This document shows positions 9,636-63,340 of a stretch of DNA of 64,000 nucleotides, one piece after another (within the stretch, counting starts at the first letter, position 1; each line of letters opens with the position of its first letter). Source of the stretch: Clostridia bacterium (GTDB lineage Bacteria; Bacillota; Clostridia; TANB77; CAG-508); assembly GCA_017511265.1 (NCBI GenBank), contig JAFWKV010000001.1:553-64552 (forward strand). Reading direction: 5' to 3'. The notes beneath the pieces were generated by a model. It did no database searches. It was not told the DNA's origin and saw only the letters and a program-made list of their open reading frames with translations. The position numbers were made by a program, and so were the translations under genes.

Positions 9636-10619
9636 ATGATTGATAGAGATTCAAATCCGGATTTTTTAAATTCGTTTTTAGACTATTCTATTACAATATT
9701 AAATAAATCACCTAATTCTGTAAAAGAATACAATTATGACATAGCTATGTTTTTAAAATATATAATGATTCGTTTTAAACTTACAAAAGAAACTGACTAT
9801 TCTAGTATAGACATTTCAAAATTTAATGTATCTACATTAAAAAAAATATCTTTGGATGATATTCACGCATTTGTTTCTCATCTTGCAGTTGACAATAAAA
9901 GCAAAGCAACAACTCGTGCAAGAAAAGTCTCAACAATTAGAATATTTTTTAAATATCTTTCTGAAAAAGAAAAAGTATTGAAAATTAATCCTGCTCAAAA
10001 CCTTGAAACGCCTAAGTTGGATAAACGTATTCCTAAGTATCTATCCCTGGATGATAGCAGAAAGCTTTTAAATATAGCTGCTGATGAAAATAATAGAAAT
10101 AAAGAGCGTGATTTTGCAATAATTACATTATTTTTAAATTGTGGTTTACGTCTTTCTGAGCTAGTAGGAATTAATATAAAAGATATAGATTTTGGTGAAT
10201 ATAAATTAAATGTTATAGGTAAAGGTAATAAAGAGCGTACAATTTATTTGAATAAGGCTTGCATAAATGCAATAAATGATTATTTAGCAGTTAGACCACG
10301 TGAAGGTGTTAAAGTAGATTCTAAACATTCTGAAAAGGCTTTATTTTTAAGTGAACAACGTAAGCGTATTAGTAATCGTACTGTTCAATATATTGTTGAT
10401 AAGGAACTTGCTAAAGCTGGTCTTGATACTACAAAGTATTCTGTTCATAAATTAAGACATACTGCAGCTACTTTAATGTATCAGTATGGTAATGTAGATA
10501 TTAGAGCACTTCAAGAATTATTAGGACATGAAAGTATTTCTACTACTGAGATTTATACTCATGTTAATAATGAACAAGTTCGTAATGCTGTTGAGAGTAA
10601 CCCCCTTGCAGATATGTAA
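9636..10619 (+). CDS. Tyrosine recombinase, XerC/XerD-like
   Basis: C-terminal catalytic motifs GLRLSEL, HKLRHTAAT and LLGHESISTTEIYTHV. Confidence 0.85.
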   Translation: MIDRDSNPDFLNSFLDYSITILNKSPNSVKEYNYDIAMFLKYIMIRFKLTKETDYSSIDISKFNVSTLKKISLDDIHAFVSHLAVDNKSKATTRARKVSTIRIFFKYLSEKEKVLKINPAQNLETPKLDKRIPKYLSLDDSRKLLNIAADENNRNKERDFAIITLFLNCGLRLSELVGINIKDIDFGEYKLNVIGKGNKERTIYLNKACINAINDYLAVRPREGVKVDSKHSEKALFLSEQRKRISNRTVQYIVDKELAKAGLDTTKYSVHKLRHTAATLMYQYGNVDIRALQELLGHESISTTEIYTHVNNEQVRNAVESNPLADM

Positions 10620-10823
10620 AACAAAATTAAAGGCATAAATCTAGCAGGAGATGTATATATATAAATAAAGAAAATCTGCGTAAGCGACCAAACGAGCGTA
10701 GCGAGTGCGATTGGAGCAAGCTACAGACCAGCAATTTTCAGTTCGGAGCTTGCGACACACAAAGATTTTCGTATTTATATATATACATCTCCTGCTAGAT
10801 TTATGCTTTTAATTTTGTTTTTA
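10617..10823. repeat. ~200-bp palindromic element spanning stop codon to stop codon between the xer gene and dpaB
   Basis: The arms TAAAACAAAATTAAAGGCATAAATCTAGCAGGAGATGTATATATATAAATA and its near-perfect complement enclose a G+C-richer ~80-bp core. The core contains AACGAGCGTAGCGAGTG, a string shared with the 13.2-kb element. Confidence 0.8.
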
Positions 10824-16328: not shown

Positions 16329-17534
16329 ATGAATAAGTTATTTGAAAAAGAAAAAGCAGACGAAAATAATCCCAAATGGCAAAATATGATATCAAGAGAA
16401 CAACCATTATATGTTAGAAACAACAGCTTACGCTCTGAATTTGAAAGAGACTATACTAGAATAATCAATAGTAATGGTTATAAAAGATTAAAACACAAAA
16501 CACAAGTGTTTTTCAGACCTAAAAGCGACCATATATGTACTAGAAGTGAGCACGTTACACTTGTAGAATCTATCAGTCATACTTTAGCACATAATATGGG
16601 ACTAAATGAAGAACTAACAAAAGCCATAGCAACTGCACATGATATTGGCCACAGCCCATTTGGCCATGCCGGAGAAAAAATATTATCTCAAATTTCTCAA
16701 AGAGATTGTGGATGTACATTTTGGCATGAAAGAAATGGCATTAATATGTTAGATAATATAGAATTGTTAGAAGATTTAAATTTAGACAGAGAAAATTTAA
16801 ATTTAACTTATGCTGTACGTGATGGCGTAATTTCACACTGTGGCGAAATTGATGAAAATTCATTAAAACCACGTGACGAATTTATTAATTTATATGATTA
16901 CACATATCCAAATCAATATGCACCATATACTTGGGAAGGATGCGTTGTTAAAGTTTCGGATAAAATTTCTTACATCTGTAGAGATATTGAAGATGCAATA
17001 AGATTGCATATAATTGATAATGAATTAGATGATTTATACAATATTTTAAAATTGCCTAAAGGCACAAAAATAAATAATACAACAATAGTTAATGAATTAA
17101 TTTATGATTTGTACCAAAATTCTACACCTAAAAAAGGTTTATGCTTCTCAAAAGAAAAGTTTGATTTGCTAAACAATATTAAAAAGTTTAATTATGAAAA
17201 AATATATGGTTCAAAAAAAGTAAGAAAAAGTGACAAATATTTTTCTTTGATTATAAACGAATTTTATGAACTATTAAAAAGCGCTTATGATGGATCAAAT
17301 ACACTGGAGCACTTAAGAGAGTTGCAACACTTCTACCCTACTTTAATTGAAACATTTATTGATTGGATTTCGTGTTATTGGAATTTAACAGATAGAACTA
17401 ATTCAAATTTAAAAAACAAAATAATTTTTAACATAGATAATAAGCAAGATTATTACAAGGCTATTATTTACTTCATTTCAGGCATGACTGATAACTTTGC
17501 AATTGATACTTATATGGAGATGATCAGCTTTTAA
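16329..17534 (+). CDS. dGTP triphosphohydrolase-like HD-domain protein
   Basis: FERDYTRIINSNGYKRLKHKTQVF, RSEHV and HDIGHSPFGHAGE are hallmark Dgt-family motifs. Confidence 0.85.
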   Translation: MNKLFEKEKADENNPKWQNMISREQPLYVRNNSLRSEFERDYTRIINSNGYKRLKHKTQVFFRPKSDHICTRSEHVTLVESISHTLAHNMGLNEELTKAIATAHDIGHSPFGHAGEKILSQISQRDCGCTFWHERNGINMLDNIELLEDLNLDRENLNLTYAVRDGVISHCGEIDENSLKPRDEFINLYDYTYPNQYAPYTWEGCVVKVSDKISYICRDIEDAIRLHIIDNELDDLYNILKLPKGTKINNTTIVNELIYDLYQNSTPKKGLCFSKEKFDLLNNIKKFNYEKIYGSKKVRKSDKYFSLIINEFYELLKSAYDGSNTLEHLRELQHFYPTLIETFIDWISCYWNLTDRTNSNLKNKIIFNIDNKQDYYKAIIYFISGMTDNFAIDTYMEMISF

Positions 17535-17535
17535 G

Positions 17536-17690
17536 TGCTGTATTTTGGGACGGGGCGACAGGTGATGCCTTGGGGACGGAGGAAAAAGTATCACCTGTTT
17601 AAAATGTTAAATCTAGTTAAAATATAAACAGGTGATACTTTTTCCTCCGTCCCCAAAGCATCACCTGTCGCCCCGTCCCAAAATACAGCA
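17536..17690. repeat. 155-bp modular palindrome (GGGAC-module family)
   Basis: The left arm TGCTGTATTTTGGGACGGGGCGACAGGTGATGCCTTGGGGACGGAGGAAAAAGTATCACCTGTTTA has a near-perfect complement on the right. It starts 2 nt after the dgt-like stop. Confidence 0.9.
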
Positions 17691-17706
17691 GACACTTTTC
17701 CTTTTC

Positions 17707-18378
17707 TCAATCTCTCCTAGCAATCAAAGCATTAATGTGTATTCCTTGCTCAGAAAACATTTTTTCATGCTCAGTTTCAATATTATCAATATCTTCCCAA
17801 AAGTTATCTTCTTTATGTAGATCATAAGTCTTTTTTATAACTTCAAACCCAGATTCTTCAAAATAAATTAAACTTGAATTAAACAAATCAATATCATCAG
17901 TTTTAAAATAAACCTCTCCTCCTGGAGTTAAAAACTGCTTATACTTTTCAAGCTGTCTTGTATGAGTTAAACGTTTTTTTCTATGCTTGCCCTTTGGCCA
18001 AGGATTACAGAAATTAATATAAATTCGTTCTATTTTATCCTGCTCTCCTAAAATAAGTAGTATTCGTTCTATATCAAATCTTGTTAGCACTAAATTGTCA
18101 ACCTCTTTGTTAGCATCTTTATAAGACTGTTCAACATTTCTTTTTGCTAAGCCTAGCATAGCATCAACCAAATCAATTGCAATATAATTTATATTTTGAT
18201 GTTCTACTGCTAATTTTGATATAAACTGGCCCTTTCCACATCCTAATTCTAAGTGTATGGGTTGTTCAGGTTTAGCAAAAAAATTTCTCCAATTTTCCTT
18301 CCAATTTTCTGGGTCATCTACATAAAATTTACTCGCTTCTAATTCTGGTCTAGCCCACTTCTTATATCTAATTCTCAT
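17707..18378 (-). CDS. trmB: tRNA (guanine46-N7)-methyltransferase
   Basis: HLELGCGKGQF SAM motif and the FCNPWPK motif, with typical length. Confidence 0.9.
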   Translation of the reverse strand: MRIRYKKWARPELEASKFYVDDPENWKENWRNFFAKPEQPIHLELGCGKGQFISKLAVEHQNINYIAIDLVDAMLGLAKRNVEQSYKDANKEVDNLVLTRFDIERILLILGEQDKIERIYINFCNPWPKGKHRKKRLTHTRQLEKYKQFLTPGGEVYFKTDDIDLFNSSLIYFEESGFEVIKKTYDLHKEDNFWEDIDNIETEHEKMFSEQGIHINALIARRD

Positions 18379-18920
18379 TTACTTCCCTCACAATGCTTTT
18401 TATATAATGCTTTAATATTTTTTCTCTTTAATGTTGCATTTATCCCATTTTCAGCAACTTGGTCAAAAACTTCTGTAAGCATTTCTGATACATTTTGATT
18501 TAATTTTGTATTATATTTTTCCTTTGCCCAATACTCAGCTTCTGACTTCAATGTCCAATTTTTACCATTGTAGATTTTGCTTGCTGAAAGTTTATCACAA
18601 ATCATTTCTGCTACATATTTATAAGGAATCATAGGTGTTTTGTTCGTAGCCGCTTCATCATACCAATATTCAGGGTGATGTCTATTTCTTCCTTTATGAT
18701 GAAGCCACGCTTTTGAATATCCATTTTGCTTTTTGCATTCAGTTATTGGGCTATATGTTCCCTTGTAATATTTAATACTTTCCAAAAACTCTGTAGGAGA
18801 AAATTTTGACCAATCATGCATAAAACCTCTAAATGGAATACCTATTTTACAACAGAATATAAATACATACCATTTGTGGCGCATTACTAATACTGTATGT
18901 TTTACTACATTTTTTACCAT
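18375..18920 (-). CDS. Conserved hypothetical protein (possibly DUF5662-like)
   Basis: The ORF overlaps trmB by 4 nt. It has HDWSKF and HHKGRNRHHPEYW motifs. The family assignment is from memory only. Confidence 0.45.
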   Translation of the reverse strand: MVKNVVKHTVLVMRHKWYVFIFCCKIGIPFRGFMHDWSKFSPTEFLESIKYYKGTYSPITECKKQNGYSKAWLHHKGRNRHHPEYWYDEAATNKTPMIPYKYVAEMICDKLSASKIYNGKNWTLKSEAEYWAKEKYNTKLNQNVSEMLTEVFDQVAENGINATLKRKNIKALYKKHCEGSK

Positions 18921-18990
18921 AATAACCTCCGTTTACTTTTTATATTATATCAAATATTATTAAATTTTCAAGAATTAAAAATATAAGCTA

Positions 18991-19866
18991 TTATTGCAGA
19001 TTAATATTAAAATCATTTGGTAAATCACATTTTAGTTCTACTTGTTTATTTGTTGCAGGATTTACAAATGTCATTTTATAGCAATGTAAAGCTTGTCTAC
19101 TAATTAAATTAGATTTCTTACCATATAATGTATCTCCTAATAAAGGATGTCCAATATAAGCCATATGTACTCGTATTTGATGGGTTCTTCCTGTTTTTAA
19201 AATACATTTTACTACAGAATTATCATTATTTTCTTGTAATACTTCATAATAAGTAATTGCCTCTTGACCACTTTCATTTACACAGCGCTCGATAATACTT
19301 TTTTCTTTTCGTGCTATTGGCAAATTAATTATTCCAGATTTTTCTTTAAATATTCCATCTACAATACATATATATTCTTTTTTGAATATACCATTTTTCA
19401 TTTGCTTTATTAAACATTCTTGTATATATTCGTTTTTTGCAAAAATAACTAATCCAGATGTATCTAAATCAAGTCTATTTACTGGTCGTATCTTCTTTTT
19501 TAAACCTATTTTATCAAAATAAAACCTAACTCCATTAGATAGACTATCATTATAGTGCCTCATTGAAGGATGTACTGCAATTCCTGAAGGTTTATTAACT
19601 ATTAATAAACCTTCATCTTCGTATATAATATCTAAAGTCATTTTAACCGGTTGTATATTTAAATTGTTTTCTTCATAATCAAGCATTATTTGGATCTTAT
19701 CGTTTAGTTGAGGTGTTATTCTTGTATCACATAAATTATTATTTAGCATAATTTTATTGTTTTTTATTAATTTCACCAATAGTCTTGAAGAAATATTCAA
19801 TTCTGTTTTTAAAAGTTGATTAAAACTTTTATAATTATTATTTTTTACTATATATTTTAAAACCAT
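18991..19866 (-). CDS. RluA-family 23S rRNA pseudouridine synthase (RluD-like)
   Basis: RPVNRLDLDTSGLVIFAK catalytic Asp motif and GRTHQIRVH motif. Confidence 0.9.
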   Translation of the reverse strand: MVLKYIVKNNNYKSFNQLLKTELNISSRLLVKLIKNNKIMLNNNLCDTRITPQLNDKIQIMLDYEENNLNIQPVKMTLDIIYEDEGLLIVNKPSGIAVHPSMRHYNDSLSNGVRFYFDKIGLKKKIRPVNRLDLDTSGLVIFAKNEYIQECLIKQMKNGIFKKEYICIVDGIFKEKSGIINLPIARKEKSIIERCVNESGQEAITYYEVLQENNDNSVVKCILKTGRTHQIRVHMAYIGHPLLGDTLYGKKSNLISRQALHCYKMTFVNPATNKQVELKCDLPNDFNINLQ

Positions 19867-19906
19867 TTTATTCTTTCCTTATCAGAATCTGCAAATGAGA
19901 ACAGAG

Positions 19907-19939
19907 GTGATACTTTTTCCTCCGTCCCCAAAGTATCAC
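19907..19939. repeat. Solitary GGGGACGGAGG-loop hairpin
   Basis: A 10-bp stem GTGATACTTT/AAAGTATCAC encloses the 13-nt TTCCTCCGTCCCC. The same unit occurs at 52537, 52603, 17.6 kb and 41.1 kb. Confidence 0.75.
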
Positions 19940-19954
19940 TTTATAGCACATAAA

Positions 19955-20302
19955 AAGAGTAAATCTGTAAGCCGGGTTCTGTCGTTTAAAATAGTCATTT
20001 ATCTAGGATATATATTACTATATATCTCAAGCCACGCAGGTTAGAAGTTGCCGAGCAGGCTTAATCTTCAATTTAGGTGTTGCTCCAGATGGGGTTTACA
20101 CAGCCCAATATGTCACCATATTGGCGGTGAGCTCTTACCTCGCCTTTTCACCCTTTCCGTAATCTACGGTGGTTATTTTCTGTTGCACTATCCTTAAGGT
20201 CACCCTCACTAGACGTTATCTAGCATCTTTGCTCTGTGGAGCCCGGACTTTCCTCTCGTAGTATCTTTCGATATTCTACCAGCGACTATTCAATTTACTC
20301 TG
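19955..20302 (-). ncRNA. rnpB: RNase P RNA (bacterial, type B-like)
   Basis: The minus strand contains GAGGAAAGTCCGGGCTCCACAG and, near the 3' end, ACAGAACCCGGCTTA. P1 pairs AGAGTAAAT (20301..20293) with ATTTACTCT (19964..19956). An extended -10 TGTTATAAT sits just upstream. Confidence 0.85.
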
Positions 20303-20336
20303 AAAGATATTATAACATTTATTTAATAATAAGTAA

Positions 20337-20363
20337 AGGATGAGAAAAATAATTTCTCATCCT
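20337..20363. terminator. Hairpin terminator between the hypothetical gene and rnpB
   Basis: Stem AGGATGAGAAA/TTTCTCATCCT flanked by A/T runs. Confidence 0.5.
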
Positions 20364-20393
20364 TTAAACTAGTATAGTAATCTACTTATCTTA

Positions 20394-20702
20394 CTATATG
20401 AGAACTTTGAATTGACCATCCTCATTCACAATTAGTGAGTGTGTGCACTTGTCTTTCTTGATTTTTCCGTTTTGATATTTAATCTCTTCATAAAACCAAA
20501 TTTTATATAGATGTTTTAACTCCAATTTCGAATACTTGATAATTCTTTTGCAATTGATTAAAAATCTATTATATGCTTCGTATGAGGTTGTAGATGTTGT
20601 AAGCATAGCTTTTGATTCATAATAAGACCAATTTACATGCTTACAAATTAATCCAGATGGTGTCATCAAAGAAATTTCTGCACGAACAGTTCTAATACTC
20701 AT
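20394..20702 (-). CDS. Hypothetical protein (102 aa)
   Basis: ORF only. I recognise no family. Confidence 0.45.
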   Translation of the reverse strand: MSIRTVRAEISLMTPSGLICKHVNWSYYESKAMLTTSTTSYEAYNRFLINCKRIIKYSKLELKHLYKIWFYEEIKYQNGKIKKDKCTHSLIVNEDGQFKVLI

Positions 20703-22066: not shown

Positions 22067-22249
22067 GAAGATGACAATATATAATAATTATTTTCTTTCC
22101 TCGGCTTGCTTCGTGGATTACAAATTCTAAAAGAAAAATCAAAACTTTACCCGAAGACAGGACCCTTTTTGATTTTTCTTTTAGAATTTGTACATTCCAC
22201 TCCACGGCACATTCATCATTTCAAAATTTTTTATATATTATCATCTTCG
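22067..22249. mobile_element. MITE-like element, copy 1 (~183 bp, terminal inverted repeats)
   Basis: TIRs GAAGATGACAATATATAA and TTATATATTATCATCTTCG enclose a hairpin core GGATTACAAATTCTAAAAGAAAAATCAAAA...TTTTGATTTTTCTTTTAGAATTTGTA. Confidence 0.75.
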
Positions 22250-22858: not shown

Positions 22859-23039
22859 AAGATGACAATATATAAAAAATTTTGAAGAGACGAATGCGCC
22901 GTGGAGTGGAATGTACAAATTCTTAAGAAAAATCAAAAAGGGTCCTGTCTTCGGGTAAAGTTTTGATTTTTCTATTAGAATTTGTAATCCACGAAGCAAG
23001 CCGAGGAAAGAAAAAATTTATTATATATTATCATCTTCG
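22859..23039. mobile_element. MITE-like element, copy 2 (core inverted relative to copy 1)
   Basis: The reverse complement matches the copy 1 core at about 95% by eye, with the same TIRs. The spurious ORFs starting MLRGLQIL on opposite strands reveal the pair. Confidence 0.75.
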
Positions 23040-32466: not shown

Positions 32467-32860
32467 TGCTGTCTTTTGGGACGGGGCAAAAAAACATCAG
32501 CCTGCTGTCAATGGGGACGTAGCAATTTGACAACCTGCCTTTGGCTAAGTTCCCTTAATTTTTTATATTAGCGCTTGATTGGAATAAGCATTAGAAATTG
32601 TTTAGCTAGAAAATGAGGGATGTTCACGGTACTCGTGTTGAATTATGAATTATAGAAAAATTTGATTTTTCTATAATGAAGAATGATACGCGAGGGACTG
32701 AGTGAAAGAGGCTCATTTTCTAGCCTTACAATTTCTTTGCGAATGAAATGAACAAGCTAATATAAAAAATTAAGGGAACTTAGCCAAAGGCAGGTTGTCA
32801 AATTGCTACATCCCCATTGACAGCAGGTGATGTTTTTTTGCCCCGTCCCAAAAGACAGCA
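32467..32860. repeat. 394-bp nested (Russian-doll) palindrome of the GGGAC-module family
   Basis: The ~105-bp arms (TGCTGTCTTTTGGGACGGGGCAAAAAAACATCAGCCTGCTGTCAATGGGGACGTAGCAATTTGACAACCTGCCTTTGGCTAAGTTCCCTTAATTTTTTATATTAGC) differ at 2 positions. The core equals the 13.2-kb element family, with a further small palindrome inserted at its centre. The right end abuts the mutS stop. Confidence 0.9.
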
Positions 32861-39721: not shown

Positions 39722-41053
39722 ATGGAAAAGATGAAAATTCAAAAATACGAAACTAATTTTAAAAGAAACCTTTTTTGGAAAGAAAGCACATTAAACACAA
39801 AACAATACACAGAAAAACAAGAAAATAAAGTAATAAATGTTTATCCTGTCATATCTTATCAAGAAATAATAGGCTTTGGTGGAGCTTTTACAGAAGCGGC
39901 AGGCTATGCTTATAGTAAGCTAAGTGATTCAAAAAAAGTTGAACTTATAGATGACTATTTTTCACAAAATGGCTTAAACTATTCAATTGGTAGATTACCT
40001 GTCGGGAGTTGTGACTTTTCTCTTAATTCTTATTCATATTCAAAAAGACCAGATTTGTCTGATTTTAGTATAGAAAGAGATAGAAAATATCTCTTACCTT
40101 TTCTGAAATCTTCACTAGAAAAAAGGCAATTGAAATTATTAGCTTCTCCATGGAGCCCTCCAAGCTTTATGAAATCCAATAAAATGCTAAAATTAGGTGG
40201 TAAGCTTTTAAATAAATATTATCAAACTTGGGCAGATTATTTGGTAAAGTATATACAAGCCTATGAATCTGAAAATGTACCTATAAAATACATAACAGTT
40301 CAAAATGAAGCAAATGCAACTCAAATATGGGAATCTTGTTTGTACTCAGCTGAAGAAGAAGTAAATTTTGCAACAAATTATCTATATTATGGTTTTGTAC
40401 ATAATAATATTGATACTAAAATACTGATATGGGATCATAACAAAGAAAAACTTTTTACAAGAGCTCTATCAGAACTAAGCACAGATTCTGCAAAGCAAGC
40501 TATTTCTGGATTTGCATTTCATTGGTATTCTGGTGACCATTTTGAAAATATTAAATTGACACATGATGCTTTTCCTGATAAGCTTTTATTTCATACAGAA
40601 GGCTGTACAGGCTTTTCTCATTTTAGAAAAGAAGATGAAGTTCAAAATGGCGAAATATATGCTCATGATATTTTAGGTGATTTAAATGCCGGTATAAATG
40701 CCTTTATAGACTGGAATTTAATACTTGATCATAAAGGAGGGCCAAATCATAAGTTAAATTACTGCAATAGTCCAATAATGCTAAATGATGCTAATTCTGA
40801 TTATGTTAAAAATTTAACGTATTATTATATTGGGCATTTTAGTAAATTTATTAAACCTGGTAGCAAACGTATTGCTTTTAGTAGATATGATGATAGAATT
40901 GAAGTAACTGCTTTTAAGAATACTGATGGTTCTATTGCTGTTGTTCTTCTGAATCGTAATAATTGGAACTATGAATATAATTTATGTATAAATGATTTTG
41001 TTATTCATGATAATTTAGATAGTCATGCTATTGTTACTTTGGTAATTAAGTAA
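39722..41053 (+). CDS. Glycoside hydrolase family 30 (glucosylceramidase-like)
   Basis: GFGGAFTEAA, ASPWSPPSFMK and ITVQNE motifs. Confidence 0.85.
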   Translation: MEKMKIQKYETNFKRNLFWKESTLNTKQYTEKQENKVINVYPVISYQEIIGFGGAFTEAAGYAYSKLSDSKKVELIDDYFSQNGLNYSIGRLPVGSCDFSLNSYSYSKRPDLSDFSIERDRKYLLPFLKSSLEKRQLKLLASPWSPPSFMKSNKMLKLGGKLLNKYYQTWADYLVKYIQAYESENVPIKYITVQNEANATQIWESCLYSAEEEVNFATNYLYYGFVHNNIDTKILIWDHNKEKLFTRALSELSTDSAKQAISGFAFHWYSGDHFENIKLTHDAFPDKLLFHTEGCTGFSHFRKEDEVQNGEIYAHDILGDLNAGINAFIDWNLILDHKGGPNHKLNYCNSPIMLNDANSDYVKNLTYYYIGHFSKFIKPGSKRIAFSRYDDRIEVTAFKNTDGSIAVVLLNRNNWNYEYNLCINDFVIHDNLDSHAIVTLVIK

Positions 41054-41214
41054 GTGATGCCTTGGGGACGGAGGAAAAAGAAGCGATGCCTTGGGGACGG
41101 AGGAAAAAGTATCACCTGTTTATATTATAGCTAGAATTTACAGTTTAAACAGGTGATACTTTTTCCTCCGTCCCCAAGGCATCGCTTCTTTTTCCTCCGT
41201 CCCCAAGGCATCAC
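41054..41214. repeat. 161-bp modular palindrome (two GTGATGCCTTGGGGACGGAGG-type modules per arm)
   Basis: It begins the base after the GH30 TAA, and its last base is the first base of the convergent gene's stop codon. It shares its inner module with the 17.5-kb palindrome. Confidence 0.9.
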
Positions 41215-41408
41215 TAATTATGGTCGTCAAATAATAATTTAATTCCCCATAATCCTGACACACCTACAAGTGAATAAACAATCCTACTAAGTATTGACAT
41301 ATCTCCAAACAAAGTTGCAACTAAGTCAAATTTAAATAGTCCTATCAATCCCCAGTTGATTGCACCAATTATAATTAAAGTCAAAGCTGTTTTATCTATA
41401 ATTTTCAT
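41214..41408 (-). CDS. DUF378-family small membrane protein
   Basis: IIGAINWGLIGLFKFDLVATLFG signature. The start at MKIIDK follows RBS GGAGGTG. Confidence 0.75.
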   Translation of the reverse strand: MKIIDKTALTLIIIGAINWGLIGLFKFDLVATLFGDMSILSRIVYSLVGVSGLWGIKLLFDDHN

Positions 41409-51408: not shown

Positions 51409-51436
51409 CTGTCTTTTGGGATGGGGCAAAAGACAG
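51409..51436. repeat. Solitary GGGAC-family hairpin
   Basis: CTGTCTTTTG-GGATGGGG-CAAAAGACAG, 4 nt beyond the rpe stop. No U-tract follows in the rpe direction. Confidence 0.65.
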
Positions 51437-52115: not shown

Positions 52116-52145
52116 GATGTTTTTTGGGACGGGGCAAAAAACATC
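52116..52145. repeat. Solitary GGGAC-family hairpin
   Basis: GATGTTTTTTG-GGACGGGG-CAAAAAACATC. It has the same loop as the unit at 51409 but a different stem word. Confidence 0.65.
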
Positions 52146-52536: not shown

Positions 52537-52633
52537 TGATACTTTTTCCTCCGTCCCCAAAGTATCAGCTTTTGCCTAATTTTTCCATTTTTTATTTCTA
52601 TGTGATACTTTTTCCTCCGTCCCCAAAGTATCA
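52537..52633. repeat. Tandem pair of GGGGACGGAGG-loop hairpins downstream of rsgA
   Basis: TGATACTTT-TTCCTCCGTCCCC-AAAGTATCA occurs at 52537..52567 and 52603..52633, within a ~65-bp tandem duplication. Confidence 0.8.
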
Positions 52634-52672
52634 TAAATTTTGCAAAAGTTGTTATACCTTTCTTTTGCAATT

Positions 52673-63070: not shown

Positions 63071-63304
63071 AAAAGTGATGCCTTAGCTGTCTTTTGGGAC
63101 GGTGTTGTCAATGGGGAAGGAGCTGTCAATGGGGACGTGCTTAAATGAAAACGTGTCAATGGGGACGGGTTTAAATGACACACATTAAAAATGTGTGTCA
63201 TTTAAGCCCGTCCCCATTGACACGTTTTCATTTAAGCACGTCCCCATTGACAGCTCCTTCCCCATTGACAACACCGTCCCAAAAGACAGCTAAGGCATCA
63301 CTTT
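63071..63304. repeat. 234-bp near-perfect palindrome with three TGTCAATGGGGA(A/C)G modules per arm
   Basis: The ~115-bp arms differ at one position, and the centre is CACATTAAAAATGTG. The outer shell reuses GTGATGCC and CTGTCTTTTGGGACGG words seen elsewhere. Confidence 0.9.
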
Positions 63305-63340
63305 TCCTTAAGTTATTATTCTCTGATATAATTTCTCTTT

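What the first reader, a model, noticed from the sequence alone, without database searches (positions are those of the whole stretch)
17536..17690. Same inner palindrome as the 41-kb locus but a different outer shell, evidence for modular assembly
The inner sequences CCTTGGGGACGGAGGAAAAAGTATCACCTGTTTA and TAAACAGGTGATACTTTTTCCTCCGTCCCCAA are shared with 41054..41214. Both have an AT-rich centre containing CTAG. The outer layer here is instead TGCTGTATTTTGGGACGGGGCGACAG, the module used at 32467, 51409 and 63087. The word AGGTGAT(A/G) recurs in nearly all copies (17.5, 19.9, 32.8 and 41.1 kb). Shared cores with swapped shells argue for a combinatorial, BIME-like mosaic family rather than independent terminators.
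Basis: seen in the sequence. Interest (0 to 1): 0.6.

Follow-up and report, generated by a model that had tools for sequence, protein, structure and literature searches.

The report
Nested REP-like palindrome, RAYT-linked family
The 155-base palindrome is a stacked copy of a small hairpin repeat (variable stem, constant GGGACGG loop) that occurs about 300 times in this gut Clostridia genome and also flanks its two RAYT-type single-strand-DNA transposase genes, so it is a mosaic mobile-repeat family of a known general kind and not a purpose-built terminator.

Summary
Window 17536-17690 is a near-perfect nested palindrome. Its inner 100 nt recur at 41053-41215 and at three other places in the genome, each time inside a different outer layer.

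The basic unit is a hairpin with a 6-12 bp variable stem and GGGACG(G) at the 5' side of the loop. I count 302 units in four families (a-d). They occur singly, as inverted doublets that always point inward, and stacked in arms. There are 28 distinct paired architectures among 66 paired elements.

Outer "shells" are half-units: a 5' stem half plus the core, which can pair only with the other arm.

The genome has two Y1/HUH transposase genes outside the window. NCBIfam's best match for both is the REP-associated tyrosine transposase model, and the closest solved fold is 4ER8. Each is flanked by inward-pointing c- or d-type units. The same "GGGACG ... gene ... CGTCCC" arrangement holds in 55 of 80 homologous loci from other uncultured gut Clostridia, with 34 different stem words and a constant loop.

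The closest described systems are REPIN/RAYT and TIRtron/TIRYT. Mobilisation and the way shells are added are inferred, not shown.

This scan has met the family before, in other genomes and at 63071-63304 of this window.

The parts
17536..17561 (+). Outer shell, left: b-type half-unit TGCTGTATTTTGGGACGG + GGCGACAG (5' stem half and core; no 3' stem half of its own)
   Evidence: outer stacked units have a median own stem of 3 bp
17562..17594 (+). c-type unit, left: GTGATGCCTTGGGGACGGAGGAAAAAGTATCAC (hairpin with a ~10-bp stem and loop GGGGACGGAGGAA)
   Evidence: the same unit type flanks the RAYT gene on contig C37
17595..17631 (.). Innermost stem CTGTTTA/TAAACAG and 23-nt AT-rich centre with CTAG. 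The centre is homologous in all five copies of the core and lies in either orientation
17632..17664 (-). c-type unit, right (GGGACGG on the minus strand)
17665..17690 (-). Outer shell, right: mirror copy of the b-type half-unit
16329..17534 (+). Left neighbour: HD-domain phosphohydrolase (dGTPase-like). Its stop codon is 2 nt before the element
17707..18378 (-). Right neighbour, convergent: TrmB-like tRNA methyltransferase (Methyltransf_4). Its stop codon is 17 nt after the element
41053..41215 (.). Sister composite: the same c-doublet core inside a second c-type shell (architecture cc|cc). A near-identical composite lies at C29:13305-13438
19907..19939 (-). Single c-type unit immediately 3' of the RNase P RNA gene (19952-20301, minus strand)
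32467..32860 (.). 394-bp MITE-like member: b+a units as 98-nt terminal inverted repeats around a non-coding cargo. Sister copies at C38:41519, C32:9905 and C13:15392
51409..51436 (+). Single b-type hairpin with a degenerate core (GGGATGG)
52116..52145 (+). Single b-type hairpin GATGTTTTTTGGGACGGGGCAAAAAACATC
52537..52634 (-). Two c-type units in the same orientation, 66 nt apart
63071..63305 (.). 235-bp stacked palindrome, architecture baaa|aaab

Best explanation
The element is a composite member of a REP/REPIN-like family of non-coding palindromic repeats.

Unit. The elementary unit is a short hairpin. Its stem sequence is free to vary, but its loop starts with GGGACG(G). Units sit singly, as inward-pointing doublets, or stacked. 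Pairs of units also bracket non-coding cargos of ~150-250 bp and bracket the genes of two RAYT/TIRYT-type Y1 HUH transposases.

Likely mechanism. The most likely mechanism is that these transposases recognise the hairpin with its GGGACGG loop on single-stranded DNA and spread the doublets in trans, without target-site duplications.

This locus. It consists of a c-type doublet, a discrete module present five times in the genome, sitting in the centre of a b-type pair of half-units.

How shells arise (inferred). Nested shells most likely arise because the apex of an existing palindrome is where a new element ends up, or is exchanged. The joints lie a few bases 3' of GGGACGG. Whole composites then move as a unit.

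Possible secondary role. Because the element lies between convergent genes, directly after both stop codons, it may also act as a 3'-end hairpin on both transcripts.

Shown: the anatomy, the copy numbers, the association with the transposase genes in this genome and in other species, and the covariation of stems. Inferred: catalysis by these proteins, the strand and site of cleavage, and the way shells are added.
For: Census.
- 302 units in 159 loci, 86% outside called genes.
- Four unit families with matching left and right stem halves.
- Within every locus the orientation is '> <' and never '< >'.

Transposase genes.
- The genome has two Y1_Tnp genes.
- In NCBIfam both match REP_Tyr_transpos best, at 81.1 and 64.8 bits against a cut-off of 80.
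- The HUH motif and the YIxxNPVK tyrosine are invariant in 43 homologues.
- The AlphaFold model has pLDDT 89.5. Its best solved-structure match is 4ER8 TnpArep, TM 0.69 normalised by target length.
- The C37 gene is flanked by inward c-units and the C8 gene by inward d-units.

Other species.
- In 55 of 80 loci the homologue has GGGACG 100-160 nt upstream and CGTCCC 15-70 nt downstream.
- 90 of 123 such sites lie in the loop of a hairpin of their own with a stem of at least 6 bp, against 7.8% of random positions. The stems use 34 different words.
- KGGGACGG reaches 50 or more copies in 10 of 25 relatives that have a homologue and in 1 of 15 without one.

Discrete modules.
- The core has five copies with sharp ends, different flanks and no direct repeats.
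- A ~225-bp MITE-like member has at least 9 copies.
- Spacing between the two innermost cores falls into classes of 47, 66, 75, ~191 and ~250 nt, and ~925 nt where the cargo is the transposase gene.

Location.
- Elements occupy 23.5% of convergent, 8% of tandem and 5% of divergent intergenic regions.
- The site downstream of trmB is empty in 13 of 19 relatives in the genus.
Against: - No transposition event, excision product or empty site was seen within the species. All five contigs from other samples carry the same junction between trmB and the shell.
- The two most abundant unit families, a and b, have no cognate transposase gene in this 86%-complete assembly. Their mobilisation would have to be in trans or by a gene that is missing from the assembly.
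- One of the two genes scores below the NCBIfam cut-off (64.8 against 80).
- The conserved motif is in the loop, not at the foot of the hairpin as in REPs studied biochemically, so the recognition mode cannot simply be transferred from 4ER8.
- Single units are strongly co-oriented with the upstream gene: 18 sense against 3 antisense. An RNA-level role would also predict this.
Confidence: 0.8

Rival explanations
1. The palindromes are host-selected RNA elements, such as bidirectional terminators or 3'-end stabilising hairpins. They would have evolved or been copied for that purpose, and the link to the transposase would be incidental.
For: The element starts 2 nt after one stop codon and ends 17 nt before the other, between convergent genes. 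Family members are enriched in convergent spacers. Singletons are sense to the upstream gene 18:3 and lie 10-40 nt after its stop. One sits right after the RNase P RNA.
Against: There is no U-tract and the terminator scan makes no call. Loops of 11-17 nt with an invariant GGGACG are not what termination needs. The same units bracket transposase genes in dozens of species and bracket non-coding cargos. There is no excess of G.T pairs on the GGGACG strand, 16 against 29. The site is empty in most relatives. A secondary role of this kind is compatible with the best explanation and is not excluded.
Confidence: 0.1
2. These are ordinary MITEs of a cut-and-paste (DDE) insertion sequence that shares the terminal inverted repeats.
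For: The long members have 63-98-nt terminal inverted repeats around a cargo.
Against: No copy that I compared has direct target-site duplications. The only genes bounded by these ends are Y1/HUH genes. The ends are themselves hairpins with covarying stems.
Confidence: 0.04
3. The 'swapped shells' are an assembly artefact: short-read assemblers joined different repeat copies through the shared core.
For: Many contigs of this genome end in these repeats. One contig from another sample, L116, joins the trmB-side arm of this locus to the flank of the C33 copy through the shared core.
Against: At this locus the shell sequence GGGGCGACAG occurs only twice in the genome, once on each side of the core. 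The two arms therefore belong together. The junction of trmB, shell and core is identical in five independent assemblies. The artefact remains possible for asymmetric composites such as C20:6768-6903.
Confidence: 0.03

Closest known systems
REP / REPIN elements with RAYT (TnpA-REP) transposases of Proteobacteria (Nunvar 2010; Bertels & Rainey 2011, PMC3116915; Ton-Hoang 2012; structure 4ER8)
   Same: Both are short extragenic palindromes in hundreds of copies. Inverted doublets are the main form. The Y1/HUH gene is itself flanked by the repeats in inverted orientation. Both prefer convergent and tandem spacers. A few copies sit in frame inside genes. Several repeat families coexist in one genome.
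   Different: The conserved tag is GGGACG(G) inside the loop, not GTAG at the 5' foot. Loops are long (11-17 nt). The protein is 220-275 aa with a C-terminal helix-turn-helix extension. The host is a 29%-GC, ~1.1-Mb gut Clostridia genome. Units are stacked in direct order in each arm.
TIRtrons / TIRYT (Di Nocera et al. 2013, PMC3733652), which correspond to TnpA-Y1 subclass 2.1 (Quentin et al. 2018, PMC6006769); probably RAYT Group 1 of Bertels et al. 2017 (PMC5581495), which includes Clostridia
   Same: Both have a RAYT-like protein with a C-terminal HTH domain and a gene flanked by terminal inverted repeats that carry a GGGG-rich motif (GGGGWSAS). Copies of those repeats are dispersed as singles, dimers and clusters. 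Relatives in this genus carry GGGGACAG, which fits the published consensus.
   Different: Here the motif is GGGGACGG, with G where the consensus has A at position 7. Each repeat is a hairpin with a covarying stem and the motif in its loop. Quentin et al. report finding no REP-like structures next to subclass 2.1 genes. Copy number is high for a small genome. Nested shells built from half-units have not been described.
BIMEs of E. coli (mosaics of Y and Z REPs)
   Same: Both are composite extragenic elements built from a small set of REP-type modules in variable number and combination.
   Different: BIME units alternate in orientation and are joined by defined linker motifs. Here the units are in direct order within an arm and the whole is one large palindrome.
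Pneumococcal BOX elements (boxA-boxB(n)-boxC)
   Same: Both are modular and have a variable number of internal modules. They are non-coding, form stable secondary structures and occur in a low-GC Gram-positive host.
   Different: BOX modules are unrelated in sequence, are not built around one conserved loop motif, and have no dedicated Y1 transposase.

Membership tests
REP/REPIN-RAYT system | Short palindromic repeat, mostly extragenic, in many copies | tested here: met
   302 units, 259 of them outside called genes. GGGACGG occurs 244 times in 1.13 Mb.
REP/REPIN-RAYT system | Y1/HUH transposase gene of the RAYT type, flanked by the repeats in inverted orientation | tested here: met
   Two genes with c- or d-type units pointing inward on both sides. 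The same arrangement holds in 55 of 80 loci of other species. The best fold match is 4ER8.
REP/REPIN-RAYT system | Inverted doublets (REPINs) as a main form | tested here: met
   66 of 104 elements not at contig ends are paired, always '> <'.
REP/REPIN-RAYT system | Conserved GTAG (or GTGG) tetranucleotide 0-2 nt 5' of the stem | tested here: not met
   The bases 5' of the stems are not conserved. The conserved block is GGGACG in the loop, 0-3 nt after the 5' stem.
REP/REPIN-RAYT system | Mobilisation of the repeats by the transposase | not testable with these tools
   Only indirect evidence: copies with different flanks, the site empty in 13 of 19 relatives, and expansions seen almost only in genomes with a homologue.
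TIRtron/TIRYT (TnpA-Y1 subclass 2.1) | RAYT-like protein, longer than classical RAYTs, with a C-terminal helix-turn-helix domain | tested here: met
   The proteins are 220 and 244 aa, against 165 aa for 4ER8. The model shows four helices at residues 157-219. Various HTH Pfam families hit below threshold, including HTH_23 and HTH_28.
TIRtron/TIRYT (TnpA-Y1 subclass 2.1) | Flanking inverted repeats that carry GGGGWSAS | tested here: inconclusive
   In this genome the motif is (T/G)GGGACGG, which departs from the consensus at position 7. Relatives in the genus carry GGGGACAG, which fits. I did not place the proteins in the published tree.
BIME | Mosaic of two or more REP types in variable combinations | tested here: met
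   28 paired architectures, and 18 stacks that mix unit families.
BIME | Successive REPs in alternating orientation, joined by defined linkers | tested here: not met
   Units are in direct order within each arm, spaced 14-36 nt apart, with one inversion at the centre.
Intrinsic (Rho-independent) terminator | Short GC-rich hairpin with a small loop, followed by a U-tract | tested here: not met
   The scan of 17000-20500 calls neither the element nor the single unit at 19907. No T-run follows the stems.
MITE of a DDE insertion sequence | Direct target-site duplication at the ends | tested here: not met
   No direct repeats at the ends of the five core copies or of the ~225-bp family. Where the flanks match each other they are inverted, being decayed outer units.

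The most novel reading that the evidence does not exclude
The nested 'Russian-doll' palindromes could record a specific reaction. In this reading the transposase cuts within the hairpin loop, 1-3 nt 3' of GGGACGG, on each strand of a doublet, and the apex between the two cuts is exchanged for another element. Existing family members would then be the preferred targets, and shells would be the leftover 5' half-units. That would be a loop-directed mode of recognition and insertion. It differs from the foot-tag and guide-sequence mechanism known for IS608 and E. coli TnpA-REP, and it may use the extra C-terminal HTH domain.
Probability: 0.2. Interest if true: 0.6.

Novelty: new variant of a known kind. 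Interest (0 to 1): 0.4.

Why it matters
REP/RAYT systems have been studied almost only in Proteobacteria. For the HTH-bearing subclass of the transposase, the literature I read reports either plain terminal inverted repeats or no associated structure at all.

This lineage of uncultured gut Clostridia offers a compact case of about 300 units in 1.1 Mb. The recognition element appears to be a loop motif in a stem that is free to vary, and the units stack into mosaics.

That gives a clear biochemical hypothesis to test: loop recognition, with cleavage next to GGGACGG.

It also has practical consequences. These repeats break short-read assemblies of this group, can create chimeric joins, sit at synteny breakpoints and can be mistaken for regulatory hairpins.

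Tried and rejected
- Rfam. No family reaches threshold. The only hits are sub-threshold generic long-hairpin (microRNA precursor) matches, both for the element and for the cargo of the ~225-bp member.
- Empty site at this locus. The two flanking genes lie on different contigs in every relative in the genus, so no orthologous junction exists.
- Insertion polymorphism within the species. Exact-protein look-up of TrmB gave five contigs. All have the same junction, most end inside the repeat, and one is a chimera or recombinant.
- G.T wobble asymmetry, used to tell an RNA-level or strand-specific fold. There is no bias towards the GGGACG strand, 16 against 29, and the count is driven by one chimeric b-type subfamily. 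The test is uninformative.
- Free shuffling of stem halves. Rejected, because left and right halves match within families.
- Simple insertion into a hairpin loop that leaves the loop bases on both sides. This does not fit C20:6768-6903, where the joints fall on a shared CAG/CTG. I could not decide between apex insertion, apex exchange and fold-back copying.
- Literature search for GGGACGG, GGGGACGG, TIRYT and TIRtron. The 15 top-ranked of 2,895 hits included nothing on these hairpins in Clostridia.

Full report
**1. What is at the coordinates**

Window 17536-17690 is a 155-nt palindrome. Its arms, 17536-17601 and 17625-17690, are 66 nt long and 98% complementary, with 23 nt between them. As RNA it folds at -130.5 kcal/mol, against -39 for shuffled sequences (z = -24.6).

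The element lies between two convergent genes:
- an HD-domain phosphohydrolase, 16329-17534 (+);
- a TrmB-like methyltransferase, 17707-18378 (-).

It starts 2 nt after one stop codon and ends 17 nt before the other.

From outside to inside, each arm reads:
- TGCTGTATTTTGGGACGGGGCGACAG;
- GTGATGCCTTGGGGACGGAGGAAAAAGTATCAC;
- CTGTTTA;
- then an AT-rich centre with CTAG.

The inner ~100 nt recur at 41053-41215, inside a different outer layer.
- The outer-layer word recurs at 32.4, 51.4, 52.1 and 63.1 kb (8 matches against 0.01 expected), but only over its first ~18 nt.
- AGGTGATR is over-represented (14 against 3.3). It is simply the stem of two of the unit types.

**2. The unit**

The window is part of contig C19 of a 1.13-Mb, 29%-GC assembly in 42 contigs that is 86% complete. 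GGGACGG occurs 18 times in the window (0.35 expected) and 244 times in the genome.

I listed every GGGACG with its context. Nearly all of them belong to one design: a stem of 6-12 bp around a loop that begins with GGGACG(G). There are four families.

| Family | Consensus |
|---|---|
| a | GTGTCAATGGGGACGGGCTTAAATGACAC and variants |
| b | GATGTTTTTTGGGACGGGGCAAAAAACATC or GCTGTCTTTT... |
| c | GTGATACTTTGGGGACGGAGGAAAAAGTATCAC |
| d | CTGCCAATAGGGACGGAGAATTTTGGCAG |

A table of left stem half against right stem half is block-diagonal. Units are therefore coherent hairpins, and stem halves do not assort freely.

A relaxed scan finds 302 units in 159 loci, and 259 of them lie outside called genes. 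Within every locus the orientation is '> <': the strand carrying GGGACG reads towards the centre, never away from it.

**3.

Among 104 elements that are not at contig ends:
- 38 are one-sided, and 37 of these are single units;
- 38 are simple doublets;
- 28 are stacked. Of the stacked ones, 18 mix unit families and 17 are asymmetric.

There are 28 distinct paired architectures among 66 paired elements: a|a, b|b, c|c, ba|ab, bc|cb, cc|cc, dc|cc, baaa|aaab and so on.

The distance between the two innermost cores falls into classes. These are 47 nt (a doublets), 66 nt, 75 nt (c doublets), ~191 nt and ~250 nt (two non-coding cargos), and ~925 nt where the cargo is a transposase gene. The modules are therefore discrete.

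The core of this finding, a c doublet with the CCTGTTTA...TAAACAGG centre, occurs five times:

| Copy | Outer layer |
|---|---|
| C19:18125 (this locus) | b-type shell |
| C19:41646 (the 41-kb locus) | second c-type shell |
| C29:13334 | second c-type shell |
| C33:8365 | b/c hybrid shell |
| C20:6799 | d-type unit on one side, c-type shell on the other |

The 163-nt cc|cc composite is nearly identical at C19:41.6 kb and C29, with unrelated flanks, so composites also move or are copied as wholes. No copy has direct repeats at its ends.

**4. What a shell is**

Outer units in a stack have almost no stem of their own. Their median own stem is 3 bp, and 18% reach 6 bp. The median is 6-8 bp for single, unstacked or innermost units.

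A shell is thus a 5' stem half plus GGGACGG plus a few bases. Its only pairing partner is the mirror copy on the other arm.

Within arms the cores are spaced at 14, 18-20, 27, 29-30 or 35-36 nt. In the tightest stacks the next unit begins 1-7 nt after GGGACGG.

Copies of the ~225-bp member show the same thing in decayed form. The 'unique' bases just outside their ends are inverted, not direct, and look like eroded a- or d-type half-units, for example TGGTCAAGAGGAAC|TGCTGTC.

This pattern says that new material ends up at the centre of an existing palindrome, with joints just 3' of the core. I could not decide between three routes:
- insertion into the apex;
- exchange of the apex between two loop cuts;
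- fold-back copying of a flank.

The C20 copy, whose joints fall on a shared CAG/CTG, argues against a simple insertion that leaves loop bases on both sides.

**5. The associated genes**

The genome has two Pfam Y1_Tnp genes, both outside the window.
- In NCBIfam their best family is REP_Tyr_transpos, at 81.1 and 64.8 bits (cut-off 80). The IS200 model scores only ~23 bits.
- Both have the HUH motif (HAH or HTH) and the YIxxNPVK tyrosine. These residues are invariant in an alignment of 43 homologues.
- The best sequence hit among solved structures is 4ER8, E. coli TnpA-REP.
- An AlphaFold model (pLDDT 89.5) has 4ER8 as its best fold match (E 3e-7, TM 0.69 on the target), ahead of the IS200, IS608 and ISDra2 transposases.
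- Residues ~157-219 form an extra helical domain with weak, mixed helix-turn-helix hits.

The C37 gene is bracketed by inward-pointing c units, one of which overlaps its stop codon. The C8 gene is bracketed by d units, with c and a units beside them. No cognate gene for the abundant a and b units is present in this incomplete assembly.

**6. Other genomes**

Homologues occur in 25 of 40 relatives in the same order. More than 564 were found in one scan of reference genomes. All the listed ones come from uncultured gut Clostridia, for example Clostridium sp. CAG:492 and CAG:452.

- In 55 of 80 loci from other species the gene has GGGACG 100-160 nt upstream and CGTCCC 15-70 nt downstream.
- 90 of 123 of these sites lie in the loop of a hairpin of their own with a stem of at least 6 bp, against 7.8% of random positions.
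- There are 34 different stem words. GGGACG sits 0-3 nt after the 5' stem and 5-8 nt before the 3' stem.

A constant loop in a freely changing stem is the signature of a structure recognised through its loop.

KGGGACGG reaches 50 or more copies in 10 of 25 relatives with a homologue and in 1 of 15 without one. Related genomes are not independent, so this is descriptive only.

Downstream of trmB, 13 of 19 relatives in the genus have no such element. Some have units with GGGGACAG instead.

**7. Function beyond spreading**

- Elements occupy 23.5% of convergent, 8% of tandem and 5% of divergent spacers.
- Single units are sense to the upstream gene 18:3, mostly 10-40 nt after its stop. One follows the RNase P RNA.

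This fits either a 3'-end RNA hairpin role or insertion into the lagging-strand template in a genome whose genes follow replication. I cannot separate the two here.

The elements are not canonical terminators, and the G.T test gave nothing.

**8. Comparison with what is known**

The system works like REP/REPIN-RAYT. It fails one defining feature of the classical REP, the GTAG tag at the foot.

It fits best the TIRtron/TIRYT description of Di Nocera et al. (PMC3733652): RAYT-like genes flanked by inverted repeats that carry GGGGWSAS, with dispersed copies. It also fits TnpA-Y1 subclass 2.1 of Quentin et al. (PMC6006769), which has the C-terminal HTH and for which those authors report finding no REP-like structures. 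Bertels et al. (PMC5581495) note that their Group 1 RAYTs occur in Clostridia.

I did not find three features in the papers read or searched:
- the hairpin with the motif in its loop;
- the G at motif position 7;
- the stacks of half-units.

Unlike BIMEs, the units do not alternate in orientation.

**9. Caveats**

- This is a short-read metagenome bin. Many contigs end in these repeats.
- One foreign contig joins this locus to the C33 copy through the shared core, so asymmetric composites may be chimeras.
- This locus itself is safe. Its shell sequence occurs only on its two arms, and the junction with trmB is the same in five assemblies.

**10. Earlier notes of this scan**

The scan has described the same family before, in other genomes and at 63071-63304 of this window, with the same closest relatives. 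I reached the RAYT and TIRYT reading before I opened those notes.

New here:
- the genome-wide architecture census;
- the finding that shells are half-units;
- the five-copy core with four different shells;
- the two cognate genes in this genome.

**Verdict**

This is a new variant of a known kind, of moderate interest.

Noticed in passing
G000 contigs C9:20374-20562, C18:52372-52562, C22:12269-12495, C21:4171-4363, C24:24056-24247, C34:20506-20697, C19:117102-117363, C32:13506-13769, C9:33852-34034 (all outside the window): A ~225-bp MITE-like member has 63-nt b-type inverted ends and a conserved, non-palindromic ~100-nt cargo. The cargo's internal hairpin GCTTTCTTTCA/TGAAAGGAAAGC is replaced by GCTTCCCACCC/GGTGGGGGAAGC in one copy, a compensatory change, so the cargo may be a structured RNA. 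No Rfam family matches.
   Followed up: partly
L116 (ENA ERZ28654271 scaffold_232308), compared with window 17536-17720 and G000:C33:8255-8555: In another sample's assembly, the trmB-side arm of this element continues through the shared core into the flank of the C33 copy. This is either an assembly chimera or real recombination between copies.
   Followed up: partly
window 16329-18378: The HD-domain gene and trmB, adjacent here, lie on different contigs in all ~80 relatives in the genus that I searched. The element therefore sits at a synteny breakpoint.
   Followed up: partly
G000 C20:16679-16752, C32:19904, C39:32284: Units lie in frame inside long ORFs. A c doublet reads ...DALGTEEKVSPSPEGDTFSSVPKASLSP... 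and a b unit reads ...IDVFGDGAKKHH... In these cases the CGG of the core is out of frame.
   Followed up: partly
whole genome: About 266 of 2969 CGG/CCG trinucleotides lie in unit cores. Earlier notes of this scan propose that in-frame CGG is read as a +1 shift to glycine in this lineage. Anyone counting CGG sites should mask these repeats.
   Followed up: no
window 19952-20301 (-): Bacterial RNase P class A RNA (298.5 bits). A single c-type unit lies 13 nt past its 3' end.
   Followed up: partly
window 10618-10821: An inverted repeat with 50-nt arms (98% complementary) and 104 nt between them. It has no GGGACG core and is unrelated to this family.
   Followed up: no
window 22119-22192 and 22914-22986: Two similar 26-nt inverted repeats (TACAAATTCTAAAAGAAAAATCAAAA ...) about 800 nt apart. 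They are not part of this family.
   Followed up: no
relatives G029 and G023: G029 has 143 KGGGACGG sites but no homologue of the transposase was found. G023 has two homologues but only one site. These are exceptions to the association and are worth a look: other core variants, or a missing gene.
   Followed up: no
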